Part shown: piece by piece, positions 7,065-12,476 of the stretch
How the letters are laid out: every line of letters starts with the position of its first letter
Numbering within the stretch: position 1 is the stretch's first letter
Assembly (NCBI RefSeq): GCF_016026235.1
Contig: NZ_CP065613.1
DNA length: 64,000 bases
Origin: Escherichia coli
Lineage (GTDB): Bacteria; Pseudomonadota; Gammaproteobacteria; Enterobacterales; Enterobacteriaceae
Strand: one strand, 5' to 3'
Program-made: the position numbers and the translations under genes
Notes under the pieces: generated by a model
What the model was told of the DNA's origin: nothing
The model's database searches: none
The model's input: the letters and a program-made list of their open reading frames with translations, nothing else

Positions 7065-8729
7065 TTAAAACGTTTCCCAGTTCTCCCCGCTATCTGCCAC
7101 TGCCATTTTACGCGGCGTAGCTGGCGTCACGTTTTTTACCACAGCCGATGTTTCACGCTGCTGTTGCTGCTGTTGCTGAATCCGGAACACTGCCACAGCT
7201 TCGGTCAGGCGACTGGCCTGCTCTTCCAGCGCGGCGGCGGCAGCGGCAGATTCTTCCACCAGCGCAGCGTTCTGTTGAGTTACCCGGTCCATCTCAGCAA
7301 CCGCTAAGCCAACCTGATCGATACCACGGCTCTGCTCATCAGAAGCAGAAGCAATTTCGCCCATAATGTCCGTCACGCGGGTCACGGCACTGACAATCTC
7401 CGCCATTGTTTCCCCTGCGCTTTCGACCAGCGTAGAGCCAACATCTACTTTCCCCACCGAGTCTTCAATCAGGCTTTTAATTTCACGAGCCGCCTGAGCG
7501 CTGCGCTGGGCCAGATTACGCACTTCACCCGCGACCACCGCAAAACCGCGCCCTTGCTCACCCGCGCGCGCTGCTTCAACCGCCGCGTTCAAAGCCAGAA
7601 TATTGGTCTGGAAGGCAATGCCGTCAATTACGCTGATAATATCGGCGATTTTCTGCGAACTGGTGGAGATATCGCGCATAGTCTGCACCACGTTATCTAC
7701 CACTTTGCCGCCGCGTTGCGCCGTTTCAGAAGCACTTAACGCCAGGTGGCTGGCCTGGCGCGCATTTTCGGCGTTCTGTTTCACCGTTGCGGTCAGTTGC
7801 TCCATGCTGGCTGCCGTCTCTTCCAGCGAAGCGGCCTGTTGCTCGGTGCGCGAAGAGAGATCGTTATTGCCGGTAGCGATTTCGCTGGCACCGCTATAGA
7901 TGGCATTGGCCCCGTTGCGCACATCACCGACGGTACGCATCAGCTCTCCCTGCATATGGCGCAAACTCTCTGCCAGTTGCCCCATCTCATTAGAGCCATC
8001 CACCTCAATCGGTTTCACCAGATCGCCGCCTGCAATATGACGAATGCTGTCAATCAGGCGATTCATTGGCGCTACCAACGAGGCTTTAATACCGAACCAG
8101 ACGGCGAAGATGACTGCCAGTACGACGATCATCACGCCCACCAGAATCCACATCGCCTGGCTGTAGGAGGCATTATTATCGCTGACGGCGATATCATAGA
8201 GCCGATCGTTTTGCTCCATGTAAGCCACATACTGCTTCTCGAAACCGTCCTGATATCCCTGGGTCGGCTGATCAAAGAACTCGTTGATTTTGCCTGCACC
8301 TAACAGTTGGATCAGCTCCGCCAGCGCATTGTGATAAATATCGTAATTACGTTTGATCTCTGCCGCTGCGGCGGTGCTCTGACGCGGGTCACGCGGCAAC
8401 GCTTCGTAATCCGCCCAGTTTTTTTCCGCCTGTTTCAGCGAAATACTGGCACTCTCCATCAGCTCAGCAACGGTTGAACCGCTACCAATATTATTCTGAT
8501 CCATCATGTAGCGGATACCCGCGCGGTTGAGGGTGTTACGCGTCTGCAACAACGCGACCCAGCTGCCATTCAGCGTGGATTGCTGCTGGCGAATGGTTTG
8601 TAAAACAGTGAAATTTTCTTTGTCATTCTTTAAGGCATTAAAGAACAGACCGCCTGATGTCAGTTGTAAAAGGCCAAAAACGGCCAAAACCAGCAGTAAG
8701 CTGGTCACAATTTTGATACGTTTTAACAT
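7065..8729 (-). CDS. tsr: Methyl-accepting chemotaxis protein I (serine chemoreceptor)
   Basis: 554-aa [30 protein letters not shown]... with HAMP and MCP signalling domains and C-terminal NWETF pentapeptide; contains a Q7 tract ([10 protein letters not shown]) encoded by (CTG/TTG)7 at 7158..7178. Confidence 0.9.
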
Positions 8730-8877
8730 GGTTTCTCTTTCCTGTGGACCGATGCAAGATTTTCGGCCAGGAAAGGAAAAACTTTATGAATATCCCGCGG
8801 AGATTACGCCGAGTAATTTTATTCACACTCTGAATTTAAAAAGCCATTATTTACATAAATTACTCACAATATAAATA

Positions 8878-8893
8878 TGTGATATGAATCACA
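8878..8893. promoter_or_regulatory. Consensus CRP-binding site TGTGA-N6-TCACA in the tsr-btsT intergenic region
   Basis: tgtgatatgaatcaca read directly; lies inside a longer palindrome aaatatgtgatatgaatcacatattt; established CRP consensus. Confidence 0.55.
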
Positions 8894-8941
8894 TATTTAT
8901 CGTCACTTAAACGACGCCTTTGCCGCTCAACCGCAAAACTG

Positions 8942-8970
8942 ACCGCTTACATCCCTAAAATAACCACTCA
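8942..8970 (+). promoter_or_regulatory. BtsR (YehT) LytTR-type binding site: direct repeat ACCGCTTA-N13-ACCACTCA upstream of btsT
   Basis: Two 8-bp direct repeats with a 13-bp spacer, matching the ACC(G/A)CT(C/T)A-N13 motif reported for the yjiY promoter. Confidence 0.5.
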
Positions 8971-9105
8971 GTTATTTACCTTACTTTACGCGCGCGTAAC
9001 TCTGGCAACATCACTACAGGATAGCGGTCAATTTACCTCCTCAAACGCAACGCAAACCTAGAACGGCTTCGGCCAACTATTAATCAATACATGCCAGGTT
9101 TTACT

Positions 9106-11256
9106 ATGGATACTAAAAAGATATTCAAGCACATACCCTGGGTGATTCTCGGAATCATCGGTGCATTCTGCCTCGCGGTAGTTGCATTACGTCGGGGGGA
9201 GCACGTCAGCGCCCTGTGGATCGTGGTCGCCTCTGTGTCGGTGTATCTGGTGGCGTATCGCTACTACAGTCTGTACATCGCCCAGAAGGTGATGAAACTC
9301 GACCCCACGCGCGCGACGCCTGCGGTTATTAACAACGACGGTCTGAACTACGTTCCGACCAACCGTTACGTGTTGTTTGGTCACCACTTCGCCGCTATCG
9401 CCGGTGCTGGTCCGCTGGTGGGTCCGGTTCTCGCCGCGCAGATGGGCTACCTGCCTGGCACGCTGTGGCTGCTGGCGGGGGTCGTGCTGGCCGGTGCGGT
9501 TCAGGACTTTATGGTGCTGTTTATCTCCTCTCGCCGTAATGGCGCATCTCTTGGTGAGATGATCAAAGAAGAGATGGGACCAGTACCGGGGACTATCGCG
9601 CTGTTTGGCTGTTTCTTAATCATGATCATCATCCTCGCCGTCCTGGCGCTGATTGTGGTTAAAGCCCTGGCCGAAAGTCCGTGGGGTGTCTTCACCGTTT
9701 GCTCAACCGTACCGATTGCGCTGTTTATGGGTATCTACATGCGCTTTATCCGTCCGGGGCGTGTGGGTGAAGTCTCTGTCATTGGTATCGTGCTGCTGGT
9801 TGCCTCTATCTACTTCGGTGGCGTGATTGCTCACGATCCGTACTGGGGTCCGGCACTGACCTTTAAAGACACCACCATTACCTTCGCGCTGATTGGCTAT
9901 GCGTTTGTTTCCGCACTGCTGCCGGTGTGGCTGATCCTCGCACCGCGCGACTATCTGGCAACCTTCCTGAAAATCGGCGTTATCGTCGGCCTGGCGCTGG
10001 GTATCGTGGTGCTGAACCCGGAACTGAAAATGCCTGCGATGACCCAGTACATTGACGGTACTGGCCCGCTGTGGAAAGGCGCTCTGTTCCCGTTCCTGTT
10101 CATCACCATCGCCTGTGGTGCGGTATCTGGCTTCCACGCGCTGATCTCTTCCGGTACGACGCCGAAACTGCTGGCTAACGAAACCGACGCGCGTTTCATT
10201 GGCTACGGCGCAATGCTGATGGAGTCCTTCGTGGCGATTATGGCGCTGGTTGCTGCGTCCATCATCGAACCGGGTCTTTACTTCGCGATGAATACCCCGC
10301 CTGCGGGCCTTGGCATCACCATGCCTAACCTGCATGAAATGGGTGGCGAGAACGCGCCGATCATCATGGCGCAGCTGAAAGACGTTACCGCACACGCGGC
10401 GGCGACCGTCAGCTCCTGGGGCTTCGTGATTTCGCCAGAGCAGATCCTGCAAACCGCGAAAGACATTGGTGAGCCTTCTGTCCTGAACCGTGCAGGTGGT
10501 GCGCCGACGCTGGCGGTAGGTATCGCTCATGTGTTCCACAAAGTGCTGCCGATGGCTGACATGGGCTTCTGGTATCACTTCGGTATTCTGTTCGAAGCCC
10601 TGTTCATCCTGACCGCGCTGGATGCGGGTACCCGTTCTGGCCGCTTTATGCTGCAAGACCTGCTGGGTAACTTCATCCCGTTCCTGAAAAAAACCGACTC
10701 TCTGGTTGCCGGTATCATCGGTACTGCGGGCTGTGTGGGTCTGTGGGGCTACCTGCTGTATCAGGGCGTGGTCGATCCGCTGGGCGGCGTTAAGAGCCTG
10801 TGGCCGCTGTTCGGTATCTCCAACCAGATGCTGGCAGCCGTAGCGCTGGTACTGGGCACCGTTGTGCTGATTAAGATGAAGCGCACCCAATACATCTGGG
10901 TAACTGTTGTTCCGGCTGTATGGCTGCTTATCTGCACCACTTGGGCGCTGGGTCTGAAACTGTTCAGCACCAACCCGCAGATGGAAGGCTTCTTCTACAT
11001 GGCAAGCCAGTACAAAGAGAAGATTGCTAACGGTACTGACCTGACGGCGCAGCAGATTGCCAACATGAACCACATCGTTGTGAACAACTACACCAACGCG
11101 GGCCTGAGTATTCTGTTCCTGATTGTGGTGTACAGCATCATCTTCTACGGTTTCAAAACCTGGCTTGCGGTGCGTAACAGCGACAAACGTACTGACAAAG
11201 AAACACCGTACGTTCCAATCCCGGAAGGCGGCGTGAAGATCTCTTCGCACCACTAA
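9106..11256 (+). CDS. btsT: Pyruvate/H+ symporter of the CstA family
   Basis: ORF recognised as BtsT/YjiY (MDTKKIFKHIPWVILGIIGAFCLAVVAL...); ORF track starts 5 codons upstream (9091); many TM segments. Confidence 0.9.
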   Translation: MDTKKIFKHIPWVILGIIGAFCLAVVALRRGEHVSALWIVVASVSVYLVAYRYYSLYIAQKVMKLDPTRATPAVINNDGLNYVPTNRYVLFGHHFAAIAGAGPLVGPVLAAQMGYLPGTLWLLAGVVLAGAVQDFMVLFISSRRNGASLGEMIKEEMGPVPGTIALFGCFLIMIIILAVLALIVVKALAESPWGVFTVCSTVPIALFMGIYMRFIRPGRVGEVSVIGIVLLVASIYFGGVIAHDPYWGPALTFKDTTITFALIGYAFVSALLPVWLILAPRDYLATFLKIGVIVGLALGIVVLNPELKMPAMTQYIDGTGPLWKGALFPFLFITIACGAVSGFHALISSGTTPKLLANETDARFIGYGAMLMESFVAIMALVAASIIEPGLYFAMNTPPAGLGITMPNLHEMGGENAPIIMAQLKDVTAHAAATVSSWGFVISPEQILQTAKDIGEPSVLNRAGGAPTLAVGIAHVFHKVLPMADMGFWYHFGILFEALFILTALDAGTRSGRFMLQDLLGNFIPFLKKTDSLVAGIIGTAGCVGLWGYLLYQGVVDPLGGVKSLWPLFGISNQMLAAVALVLGTVVLIKMKRTQYIWVTVVPAVWLLICTTWALGLKLFSTNPQMEGFFYMASQYKEKIANGTDLTAQQIANMNHIVVNNYTNAGLSILFLIVVYSIIFYGFKTWLAVRNSDKRTDKETPYVPIPEGGVKISSHH

Positions 11257-11305: not shown

Positions 11306-11509
11306 ATGTTTGGTAACTTAGGACAGGCAAAAAAATATCTCGGCCAGGCGGCAAAGATGTTGATTGGCATTCCAGACTACGACAACTACGTCGAGCATAT
11401 GAAGACCAACCATCCCGACAAGCCGTACATGAGCTATGAAGAATTCTTCCGCGAACGCCAGAACGCGCGCTACGGCGGCGATGGTAAAGGCGGTATGCGC
11501 TGTTGTTAA
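11306..11509 (+). CDS. yjiX: Small conserved protein YjiX
   Basis: 67-aa [55 protein letters not shown]...; immediately downstream of btsT as in K-12. Confidence 0.8.
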
Positions 11510-11519
11510 TGGAGAGAGC

Positions 11520-12476
11520 ATGAACCCGATTGCAGTTACCCTACTCACCGGTTTTTTAGGCGCGGGAAAAACCACCCTGCTGCGCCATATTCTTAACGAA
11601 CAACACGGCTACAAGATTGCCGTGATTGAAAACGAATTCGGCGAAGTCTCCGTTGATGATCAACTAATTGGCGACCGCGCCACGCAGATCAAAACGCTGA
11701 CCAACGGCTGCATCTGCTGTTCGCGCTCCAACGAGCTGGAAGACGCACTACTCGACCTGCTGGATAATCTCGACAAGGGCAATATTCAGTTTGACCGTCT
11801 GGTCATTGAATGCACCGGCATGGCCGATCCCAGCCCGATTATTCAGACCTTTTTCTCCCATGAGATTTTATGCCAGCGTTACCTGCTGGACGGTGTGATT
11901 GCGCTGGTGGATGCGGTACATGCCGACGAGCAGATGAACCAGTTCACCATCGCTCAGTCCCAGGTTGGCTACGCCGACCGTATTCTGCTGACCAAAACCG
12001 ACGTCGCAGGCGAAGCAGAAAAACTGCGTGAACGCCTGGCGCGCATCAACGCCCGTGCACCGGTCTACACCGTCACCCACGGCGACATCGACCTGGGCCT
12101 GCTGTTCAACACCAACGGTTTTATGCTGGAAGAGAACGTCGTCAGCACCAAACCGCGTTTCCACTTTATCGCGGATAAACAAAACGATATTTCGTCGATT
12201 GTGGTGGAACTGGATTACCCGGTAGATATCAGCGAAGTTTCCCGGGTGATGGAAAACCTGCTTCTGGAATCGGCAGATAAACTGCTGCGTTACAAAGGGA
12301 TGCTGTGGATTGACGGCGAACCTAACCGCCTGCTGTTCCAGGGCGTCCAGCGCCTCTACAGCGCCGACTGGGACCGCCCGTGGGGCGATGAAAAACCGCA
12401 TAGCACAATGGTGTTTATCGGGATTCAGTTGCCGGAGGAAGAGATTCGGGCAGCGTTTGCGGGGTTGAGGAAGTAA
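11520..12476 (+). CDS. yjiA: COG0523-family P-loop GTPase (metal chaperone-like)
   Basis: Walker A GFLGAGKTT near the N-terminus and CXCC motif (GCICCS); start taken at ATG 11520 (MNPIAVTLLTGFLGAGKTT), giving 318 aa; the longer ORF-track start at 11436 overlaps yjiX. Confidence 0.85.
   Translation: MNPIAVTLLTGFLGAGKTTLLRHILNEQHGYKIAVIENEFGEVSVDDQLIGDRATQIKTLTNGCICCSRSNELEDALLDLLDNLDKGNIQFDRLVIECTGMADPSPIIQTFFSHEILCQRYLLDGVIALVDAVHADEQMNQFTIAQSQVGYADRILLTKTDVAGEAEKLRERLARINARAPVYTVTHGDIDLGLLFNTNGFMLEENVVSTKPRFHFIADKQNDISSIVVELDYPVDISEVSRVMENLLLESADKLLRYKGMLWIDGEPNRLLFQGVQRLYSADWDRPWGDEKPHSTMVFIGIQLPEEEIRAAFAGLRK

What the first reader, a model, noticed from the sequence alone, without database searches (positions are those of the whole stretch)
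8878..8970. btsT control region carries a perfect CRP palindrome and a BtsR direct repeat
A consensus TGTGA-N6-TCACA site (8878..8893) inside a 26-bp palindrome and an ACCGCTTA-N13-ACCACTCA direct repeat (8942..8970) lie upstream of btsT. These agree with published CRP dependence and BtsS/BtsR (LytTR) activation of yjiY/btsT, so the regulatory architecture looks conserved here.
Basis: partly seen in the sequence, partly recalled or inferred. Interest (0 to 1): 0.2.

Follow-up and report, generated by a model that had tools for sequence, protein, structure and literature searches.

The report
Known CRP and BtsR sites upstream of btsT
This is the already-described control region of the E. coli pyruvate transporter gene btsT, with a catabolite-regulator (CRP) site and repeats for the pyruvate-response regulator BtsR; both motifs are real and strongly conserved, so the finding is correct but ordinary.

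Summary
Both motifs are at the stated coordinates. TGTGATATGAATCACA (8878..8893) is the only perfect CRP core in the 64 kb window. ACCGCTTA-N13-ACCACTCA (8942..8970) is an exact match to the YehT/BtsR motif as I recall it.

The window is E. coli, with tsr (7065..8729, -) diverging from btsT (9106..11256, +). A published "yjiY YehT binding site" oligo equals window 8917..8974 base for base. Published work also reports tight CRP binding to a site 132.5 bp upstream of the tsr sigma-28 promoter, which is this site, with no effect on tsr. Other papers state that btsT needs cAMP-CRP and BtsS/BtsR.

Comparative data add support:
- In 77 of 77 Enterobacterales species loci, a CRP-like site sits at a fixed distance from the BtsR octamers, whatever gene lies upstream.
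- In about 2,066 E. coli genomes the hpa operon separates tsr from this site. The site stays with btsT.

Modest extras:
- There are three conserved octamers (+44, +64, +84/85 from the CRP site), not two. The first is degenerate in this haplotype (GCCGCTCA, 8922..8929).
- A conserved TGnCAnnAT block (9003..9011) is a likely extended -10. It would put CRP near -132.5.

Verdict: already known, low interest.

The parts
7065..8729 (-). tsr (serine chemoreceptor) coding sequence, divergent neighbour of btsT
   Evidence: ORF list. RefSeq annotation of the 100% identical strain.
8760..8786 (-). tsr sigma-28 (FliA) promoter, TAAAGTTT-N11-GCCGAAAA. It implies a tsr start near 8753.
   Evidence: One mismatch to the sigma-28 consensus, the only hit in the window, expected 0.05. 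Consistent with the 132.5-bp distance given in PMC2859248.
8878..8893 (.). CRP-binding core TGTGATATGAATCACA, centre 8885.5, embedded in a perfect palindrome 8871..8900
   Evidence: CRP binding in vitro to the K-12 tsr regulatory fragment is published, and the K-12-derived locus L004 has the identical site. A CRP-like core sits at the same offset from the octamers in 77 of 77 species loci.
8922..8929 (+). Upstream, degenerate third octamer GCCGCTCA, at +44 from the CRP core. It is an exact ACCGCTCA in the other two E. coli haplotypes and exact in 54 of 77 species.
   Evidence: It is included in the published YehT-site oligo. BtsR binding to it is inferred, not shown.
8942..8949 (+). BtsR (YehT) octamer ACCGCTTA, the promoter-distal half of the published direct repeat
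   Evidence: Exact in 68 of 77 species loci at +64 from the CRP core.
8963..8970 (+). BtsR (YehT) octamer ACCACTCA, the promoter-proximal half of the published direct repeat
   Evidence: Exact in 54 of 77 and one mismatch in 23 of 77 species loci at +84/85.
8974..8996 (+). Conserved block ATTTACC..ACTTTACGCGCGCG between the octamers and the candidate -10. Its role is unknown; it covers the -35 region but matches TTGACA poorly.
   Evidence: Per-column conservation.
9003..9011 (+). Candidate extended -10 element TGgCAACAT (family pattern TGnCAnnAT). The predicted transcription start is about 9018.
   Evidence: Found 39-40 bp after the third octamer and 122-125 bp after the CRP core in 66 of 78 sequences, while leader length varies from 56 to 90 nt. 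This is an inference; no start-site data could be retrieved.
9018..9105 (+). Predicted btsT leader, with a GGCUUCGGCC hairpin (9065..9074) and a ribosome-binding AGG (9096..9098)
   Evidence: G-C to A-U covariation at 9065/9074. The overall fold is no more stable than shuffled sequence.
9106..11256 (+). btsT (yjiY) coding sequence, pyruvate/H+ symporter, 716 aa
   Evidence: RefSeq annotation of the identical sequence. ORF list. 90-100% identical orthologues in 80 species loci.

Best explanation
This is the regulatory region of the E. coli pyruvate/H+ symporter gene btsT (yjiY). It integrates two signals.

Pyruvate signal: phosphorylated BtsR, the LytTR response regulator of the pyruvate sensor BtsS, binds an array of ACC[G/A]CT[C/T]A octamers spaced two helical turns apart. 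These are 8942..8949, 8963..8970, and probably the weaker 8922..8929. From there BtsR activates a weak promoter just downstream that lacks a -35 element.

Carbon-starvation signal: cAMP-CRP binds the perfect core at 8878..8893, 28 bp upstream of the array, and acts as a co-activator. btsT is therefore induced only when pyruvate is present and preferred carbon sources are absent.

What is shown and what is inferred:
- Shown by others: CRP binds the K-12 tsr regulatory fragment that carries this predicted site, and does not affect tsr; btsT expression depends on CRP and on BtsS/BtsR; the 8917..8974 stretch is the YehT-binding fragment.
- Shown here: the motifs, their significance, and their rigid conserved geometry.
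- Inferred: the core promoter is the conserved extended -10, TGgCAACAT at 9003..9011, giving a start near 9018. That places the octamers near -92.5, -72.5 and -51.5 and CRP near -132.5. CRP would then work in a class III-like way (DNA bending, or help to BtsR or the alpha subunit C-terminal domain) rather than by class I or II contact.
For: - Motifs are exact and unique in the window.
- The window is 100% or 99.2% identical to E. coli strains in which the downstream gene is annotated btsT.
- The published YehT-site oligo equals 8917..8974.
- Published tight CRP binding at 132.5 bp from the tsr promoter, with no effect on tsr, agrees with the sigma-28 promoter at 8760..8786.
- CRP and BtsS/BtsR dependence of btsT is stated in PMC5431176 and PMC10653868. 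Conservation of the BtsR motif across gamma-proteobacteria is published in PMC5552118.
- Three E. coli upstream haplotypes (tsr-adjacent 2751 genomes, hpaC-adjacent 2066, 180-aa hypothetical gene 362) all keep a perfect TGTGA-N6-TCACA exactly 64 bp before ACCGCTTA, although the flanks differ.
- In the hpa haplotype, tsr keeps its sigma-28 promoter but has no CRP site. The site lies 11 kb away, next to btsT.
- 77 of 77 species loci have the CRP-like core (74 with at most 1 mismatch), with octamers at +44, +64 and +84/85. The sequence between these blocks is essentially unconserved.
- TGnCAnnAT sits at fixed spacing in 66 of 78 sequences.
Against: - The primary paper (Kraxenberger et al. 2012) could not be read here, so the published start site and any mutational test of this CRP site are unknown to me.
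- No start-site data were retrieved, so all positions relative to +1 are predictions.
- CRP near -132.5 is unusually far upstream. CRP dependence could in principle be partly indirect.
- The third octamer has a mismatch at its first base in this haplotype, and no binding data for it were seen.
- The species loci are all related Enterobacterales, so the counts are not independent events.
Confidence: 0.85

Rival explanations
1. The CRP palindrome is the regulatory site of the divergent tsr gene, activating or repressing its sigma-28 promoter, and is only incidentally near btsT.
For: It lies in the shared tsr-btsT intergenic region, 132.5 bp from the tsr start. It was first predicted and tested as a 'tsr' CRP site.
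Against: - Hollands et al. detected no effect of CRP on tsr expression.
- In 2066 hpa-type E. coli genomes, tsr retains its sigma-28 promoter with no CRP site nearby, while the perfect site stays beside btsT.
- Across species the site keeps a fixed distance to the BtsR octamers whatever the upstream gene is.
Confidence: 0.03
2. The site binds CRP but has no direct role at btsT. The CRP dependence of btsT would be indirect, for example through btsSR expression, cAMP-dependent pyruvate overflow, or other factors. The site would be one of the many non-regulatory high-affinity CRP sites.
For: - The predicted position (about -132.5) is outside the classical class I and II positions.
- I saw no site-directed test of this site.
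- The papers I could read state only a dependence on CRP.
Against: - The core is maintained in 77 of 77 species at an offset of 43-45 bp to the first octamer, while adjacent sequence is randomised.
- Three E. coli haplotypes with different flanks keep it perfect and in register.
- A functionless site would not hold both its sequence and single-base spacing.
Confidence: 0.08
3. The 30-bp palindrome acts at the RNA or DNA-structure level, as a hairpin terminator or cruciform, rather than as a protein site.
For: Perfect 13-nt arms with a 4-nt gap.
Against: - It is AT-rich with no following T-run, and the terminator scan found nothing in 8600..9200.
- The extended arms are not conserved in other haplotypes or species, where only the TGTGA/TCACA core is kept.
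- No gene ends here in the tsr-adjacent haplotype.
Confidence: 0.02

Closest known systems
E. coli K-12 yjiY/btsT promoter (Kraxenberger et al. 2012, J Bacteriol 194:4272; motif recalled from memory, paper not held here)
   Same: The CRP core and both octamers are identical to the K-12-derived strain DH1. The 58-bp YehT-site oligo is identical. The flanking genes tsr, btsT, yjiX and yjiA are the same.
   Different: Nothing of substance: the intergenic region is 99.2% identical to the K-12 derivative. Seen across species, the array has three octamers rather than the two described.
LytTR-regulator promoters (YpdB at yhjX, AgrA at agr P2/P3, ComE, PlnC)
   Same: Short direct repeats of 8-11 nt separated by 11-13 nt, just upstream of a weak promoter, as summarised in PMC4847170.
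   Different: Here the periodic array appears to have three members at 20-21 bp intervals, and it is coupled to an upstream CRP site at fixed distance.
CRP co-dependent (class III) promoters, such as those where CRP sits upstream of a primary activator (own knowledge: araBAD, malK, acs P2)
   Same: A consensus CRP site lies well upstream of a second, signal-specific activator. Expression needs both.
   Different: The partner is a LytTR response regulator. The predicted distance (about -132.5) is longer than most characterised cases, and the mechanism has not been tested.
cstA promoter (paralogous pyruvate/peptide transporter)
   Same: It drives a CstA-family transporter under cAMP-CRP activation and CsrA translational control (PMC7730263).
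   Different: cstA is not BtsR-dependent and responds to stationary phase and Fis. It has no octamer array.

Membership tests
CRP-binding site | Match to the inverted-repeat core TGTGA-N6-TCACA | tested here: met
   Perfect match at 8878..8893, unique in the window, expected 0.05.
CRP-binding site | CRP-cAMP binds the DNA | not testable with these tools
   Published gel shifts show tight binding to the K-12 tsr regulatory fragment, with the predicted site 132.5 bp from the tsr promoter (PMC2859248). The K-12-derived sequence is identical at the site.
CRP-dependent promoter, class I or class II | Site centred near -41.5 (class II) or -61.5/-72.5/-82.5/-92.5 (class I) relative to the start | tested here: inconclusive
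   No mapped start was available. With the conserved extended -10 (9003..9011) the centre is about -132.5. With the unconserved TAACTC alternative it is about -124. Neither is a class I or II position.
CRP-dependent promoter | Expression lost in crp/cya mutants or repressed by glucose | not testable with these tools
   Stated for yjiY/btsT in PMC5431176 and PMC10653868, citing Kraxenberger 2012.
BtsR (YehT) LytTR binding site | Two direct repeats ACC[G/A]CT[C/T]A separated by 13 bp (motif recalled from the 2012 abstract) | tested here: met
   Exact match at 8942..8970, with 0 of 100 shuffles giving one.
BtsR (YehT) LytTR binding site | Identity with the experimentally used YehT-binding fragment of PyjiY | tested here: met
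   The oligo from PMC4847170 Table 1 equals window 8917..8974 with 0 mismatches.
BtsR (YehT) LytTR binding site | Located upstream of a btsT orthologue and conserved among species that have BtsS/BtsR | tested here: met
   Octamers with at most 1 mismatch in 77 of 77 (second and third) and 76 of 77 (first) species loci. Published conservation in PMC5552118.
BtsR (YehT) LytTR binding site | BtsR binding and BtsS/BtsR-dependent induction by pyruvate | not testable with these tools
   Published for E. coli and Salmonella.
General LytTR-site architecture | Repeats of 9-11 nt with 11-13 nt spacers | tested here: met
   8-nt cores with 12- or 13-nt spacers: start-to-start 20 or 21 bp in all 77 loci for the first pair and 76 of 77 for the second pair (one at 22 bp). 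Definition quoted from PMC4847170.

The most novel reading that the evidence does not exclude
The btsT promoter may not be a two-repeat LytTR site. It may be a rigid module conserved across Enterobacterales: a CRP core, then 28 bp, then three BtsR octamers on one DNA face (20-21 bp apart), then 31-32 bp, then an extended -10 with no -35.

On this reading the first octamer is a functional BtsR site that is weakened (A to G) in the K-12-type haplotype. E. coli lineages would then differ in btsT inducibility. The differences would come from the tsr-adjacent, hpa-adjacent (which also carries an ERIC element in the leader) and O157-type upstream contexts.
Probability: 0.4. Interest if true: 0.3.

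Novelty: already known. Interest (0 to 1): 0.15.

Why it matters
It matters little beyond confirmation, because the CRP plus BtsS/BtsR control of btsT is published.

The comparative results do tidy up two loose ends. First, they assign the strong "tsr" CRP site of Hollands et al., which had no detectable effect on tsr, to btsT. Second, they suggest the BtsR array has a third, conserved member and a fixed geometry with CRP. That gives a concrete, testable model for how a LytTR regulator and CRP co-activate a promoter.

Tried and rejected
- **Primary papers not held.** Kraxenberger 2012 was tried by DOI, PMC id and PubMed id, and Behr 2014 by PMC id. The motif definition and CRP dependence therefore rest on citing papers and on my memory of the abstract.
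- **No mapped btsT start found.** Conway 2014 has no supplements held. Mendoza-Vargas 2009 and Kim 2012 supplements have no yjiY entry. Thomason 2015 is not held. The Salmonella yehUT paper has none.
- **Consensus promoter scan uninformative.** It found only two weak sigma-70-like hits upstream of the CRP site, no more than in shuffles, and no terminator.
- **TAACTC/AACTCT (8997..9003) with TTTACC as -35 rejected.** I considered it as the core promoter and set it aside because the hexamer is not conserved between species, whereas TGnCAnnAT is.
- **Rfam:** no family anywhere in the 64 kb window.
- **Leader folding** (9010..9125) is no better than shuffles, z = +0.87.
- **AACTGA/TCAGTT inverted repeat** flanking the octamers (I3) is not conserved in other species and is treated as chance.
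- **CsrA-like ACAGGAUAG at 9016..9024** reads CAGCATA in most other species, so I do not claim it as a conserved CsrA site.
- **A CsrA/yjiY literature search** returned nothing specific.

Full report
**1. The observation**

The sequence reads ...ATAAATATGTGATATGAATCACATATTTAT... TGTGA is at 8878..8882 and TCACA at 8889..8893. A pattern search finds this as the only perfect TGTGA-N6-TCACA in the 64 kb window, against 0.05 expected.

It has perfect 13-nt arms at 8871..8883 and 8888..8900.

ACCGCTTA (8942..8949), 13 bp, then ACCACTCA (8963..8970) is the only exact ACCRCTYA-N13-ACCRCTYA in the window, and no shuffle produced one. Single octamers are frequent (11 in the window), so it is the pair that carries the signal.

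**2. Where this is**

The 381-bp intergenic stretch is 100% identical to E. coli strain 720632 and 99.2% identical to the K-12 derivative DH1. In those records the flanking genes are, in order:
- lgoT
- tsr (window 7065..8729, minus strand)
- btsT (window 9106..11256, plus strand)
- yjiX
- yjiA

.

The ORF list starts btsT at an upstream in-frame ATG (9091). That ATG is not conserved in other species, so the annotated start at 9106 stands.

On the minus strand, TAAAGTTT-N11-GCCGAAAA (8786..8760) matches the sigma-28 consensus with one mismatch and is unique in the window. This is the tsr promoter.

**3. What is published**

I could not open the primary paper, Kraxenberger et al. 2012. From memory of its abstract, it reports that YehT binds two direct repeats ACC[G/A]CT[C/T]A separated by 13 bp in the yjiY promoter, and that expression depends on cAMP/CRP.

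Papers I could read support this:
- PMC4847170 lists an oligo called "yjiY YehT bs". It equals window 8917..8974 without a mismatch.
- PMC5431176 and PMC10653868 state that YehT/BtsR-mediated yjiY/btsT transcription also requires cAMP-CRP, and that CsrA acts post-transcriptionally.
- PMC5552118 reports that the BtsR motif is conserved upstream of yjiY in many gamma-proteobacteria.

Independently, Hollands et al. (PMC2859248) made three findings:
- CRP binds the K-12 tsr regulatory fragment "much tighter" than the aer fragment.
- The predicted site is 132.5 bp upstream of the sigma-28 tsr promoter.
- They could detect no effect of CRP on tsr expression.

With the sigma-28 -10 ending at 8760, a start at 8753 puts the site centre at 8885.5, which is exactly the centre of the palindrome here. 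So CRP binding in vitro to the fragment carrying this predicted site is published, and the site was left without a target on the tsr side.

**4. Whose site is it? Evidence within E. coli**

Only 2751 of 5426 complete E. coli genomes carry this whole intergenic region. In 2066 genomes the 11-gene hpa (4-hydroxyphenylacetate) cluster lies between tsr and btsT. In 362 genomes, mostly O157, a 180-aa hypothetical gene lies there.

In both alternative haplotypes a perfect CRP core (TGTGATCTCAATCACA or TGTGATCATCATCACA) sits immediately after the inserted gene's end. It lies exactly 64 bp, start to start, before ACCGCTTA, as in the window. The 44 bp in between are the same length but differ at many positions.

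In the hpa haplotype, tsr keeps its sigma-28 promoter but has only 118 bp of upstream DNA and no CRP site. The perfect site is 11 kb away, beside btsT. This assigns the site to btsT and disposes of the tsr alternative.

**5. Evidence across species**

A scan for btsT orthologues returned 80 loci from different species: Escherichia, Salmonella, Citrobacter, Klebsiella, Raoultella, Kluyvera, Enterobacter, Kosakonia, Pluralibacter, Erwinia, Rahnella and others. Of these, 77 have at least 300 bp of upstream sequence.

All 77 have a CRP-like core 195-365 bp before the start codon: 28 are perfect, 46 have one mismatch and 3 have two mismatches. About 0.01 per locus would be expected by chance (my calculation).

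The upstream neighbour varies: tsr adjacent, tsr about 1 kb away, hpaC, the 180-aa gene, or none of these.

Relative to the first base of the CRP core, ACCRCTYA octamers occur as follows:

| Octamer | Offset from CRP core start | Exact | One mismatch | Two mismatches |
|---|---|---|---|---|
| First | +44 (68 loci; +43 to +45 overall) | 54 | 22 | 1 |
| Second | +64 (63 loci; +63 to +65 overall) | 68 | 9 | 0 |
| Third | +84/85 (65 loci; +83 to +86 overall) | 54 | 23 | 0 |

Start-to-start spacings are 20 bp (72 loci) or 21 bp (5) for the first pair. For the second pair they are 20 bp (53), 21 bp (23) or 22 bp (1).

Column-wise information content is high over the CRP half-sites and the three octamers and near zero between them. 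The conserved unit is therefore a CRP site plus three octamers on one face of the helix.

In the window, and in K-12, the first octamer is GCCGCTCA (8922..8929), one mismatch. In the other two E. coli haplotypes it is an exact ACCGCTCA. The published oligo spans all three octamers, starting 5 bp before the first and ending 4 bp after the third. The third site may therefore be known to that laboratory, but the accessible papers speak of a two-part motif.

**6. Core promoter (inference)**

Downstream of the third octamer the alignment shows three conserved blocks: ATTTACC (8974..8980), ACTTTACGCGCGCG (8983..8996), and most strongly TCTGGCAaGATC.

The last block fits an extended -10, TGnCAnnAT. 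TG, A at hexamer position 2, and AT at positions 5-6 are nearly invariant. In the window it reads TGGCAACAT, 9003..9011.

It lies 39-40 bp after the start of the third octamer and 122-125 bp after the CRP core in 66 of 78 sequences. By contrast, the distance from it to the start codon varies from 56 to 90 nt, or about 210 nt with an inserted repeat element. Rigid spacing to the activator sites and loose spacing to the gene is what a -10 element would show.

The alternative hexamer, TAACTC at 8997..9002, is not conserved.

If the start is about 9018, the octamers are centred near -92.5, -72.5 and -51.5, and CRP near -132.5. No -35-like hexamer is present, which suits an activator-dependent promoter. 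I found no start-site data to check this.

**7. Mechanism**

The best-supported reading is the published one. BtsR, activated by BtsS on sensing external pyruvate, binds the octamer array and recruits RNA polymerase. cAMP-CRP bound at 8878..8893 is required in addition, so that btsT is expressed only without preferred carbon sources.

The distance of CRP from the predicted start excludes the usual class I or II contacts. The single-base conservation of the CRP-to-octamer spacing argues for a stereospecific complex, such as DNA bending that aids BtsR loading or alpha-subunit contacts. This last step is inference.

Rivals are listed with their weights: a tsr site, an indirect CRP effect, and a structural palindrome. 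The first and third are contradicted by the comparative data and by the absence of terminator features.

**8. Comparison and novelty**

This is the known btsT/yjiY promoter, and the finding is correct and already described.

The features defining a CRP site and a BtsR/LytTR site that can be tested on sequence are met. Binding and genetic dependence are published but cannot be tested here. The class I or II position test is not met under either candidate start.

New, minor points:
- The orphan "tsr" CRP site is assigned to btsT.
- There is a third conserved octamer, degenerate in the K-12-type haplotype.
- There is a candidate extended -10.
- The insertion polymorphism ends precisely at the upstream edge of the CRP site.

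**9. Verdict**

- Observation: confirmed.
- Interpretation: supported.
- Novelty: already known.
- Interest: 0.15.
- Most novel reading not excluded: a rigid module of CRP, three BtsR sites and an extended -10, with lineage-specific weakening of the first site. Probability about 0.4, interest about 0.3 if true.

Noticed in passing
window 8871..8878 (upstream edge of the CRP site); L003 2915..2955; L002 2892..2955: The DNA just upstream of the btsT CRP site is a pan-genome insertion point. 2751 E. coli genomes have tsr directly adjacent, 2066 have the 11-gene hpa operon, and 362 (mostly O157) have a 180-aa hypothetical gene. In each case the inserted block ends, with a hairpin, within a few bases of the CRP core.
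   Followed up: yes
L003 3152..3292 (corresponds to an insertion after window about 9074): The hpa-type haplotype (2063 genomes) carries a roughly 125-bp insertion in the btsT leader, right after the GGCTTCGGCC hairpin. It contains GTGAATCCCCGGGAGCTTACAA and CAGTAAGTGACAGGGGTGAACG. These match the standard ERIC1R (reverse complement) and ERIC2 primer sequences, recalled from memory, at 20 of 22 and 19 of 22 bases. It is therefore an ERIC/IRU repeat that would be transcribed within the btsT mRNA leader. Similar long leaders occur in L005, L007, L017 and L077.
   Followed up: partly
window 8922..8929: A third BtsR-type octamer lies 20 bp upstream of the published pair. It is conserved in 76 of 77 species loci with at most one mismatch, and it carries an A to G change at its first base in this K-12-type haplotype and in E. 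albertii.
   Followed up: yes
window 8986..8999 and 8974..8981 / 9031..9038: TTACGCGCGCGTAA is a perfect 14-bp palindrome with a (CG)4 core in the predicted -35/-10 spacer. The CGCGCG run is conserved across genera. ATTTACCT occurs twice, 57 bp apart, and both copies fall in conserved blocks. No function is assigned.
   Followed up: partly
window 9065..9074: A small GGC-UUCG-GCC hairpin (UUCG tetraloop) in the predicted leader is present in about 40 of 63 aligned species. It shows G-C to A-U covariation at the third pair (GGC/GCC versus AGC/GCT). The whole-leader fold is not significantly stable.
   Followed up: partly
window 9091..9093: There is an in-frame ATG five codons upstream of the annotated btsT start, and the mechanical ORF list begins there. 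It is specific to Escherichia and overlaps the ribosome-binding region, so it is probably not the start.
   Followed up: yes
window 8760..8786 (minus strand): The tsr sigma-28 promoter, TAAAGTTT-N11-GCCGAAAA, is retained unchanged in haplotypes where the hpa cluster or another gene follows it.
   Followed up: yes
L085 6323..6338: A one-mismatch CRP-like site (TGTTAATTAGATCACA) lies in the hpaR-hpaG intergenic region of the hpa island. It presumably belongs to the catabolite-repressed hpaG promoter.
   Followed up: no
window 11306..11509 and 11520..12476: yjiX and yjiA follow btsT closely on the same strand. The Salmonella yehUT study (PMC3875573) found that the orthologous neighbours are co-regulated with cstA1/btsT, which suggests an operon driven by this control region.
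   Followed up: no
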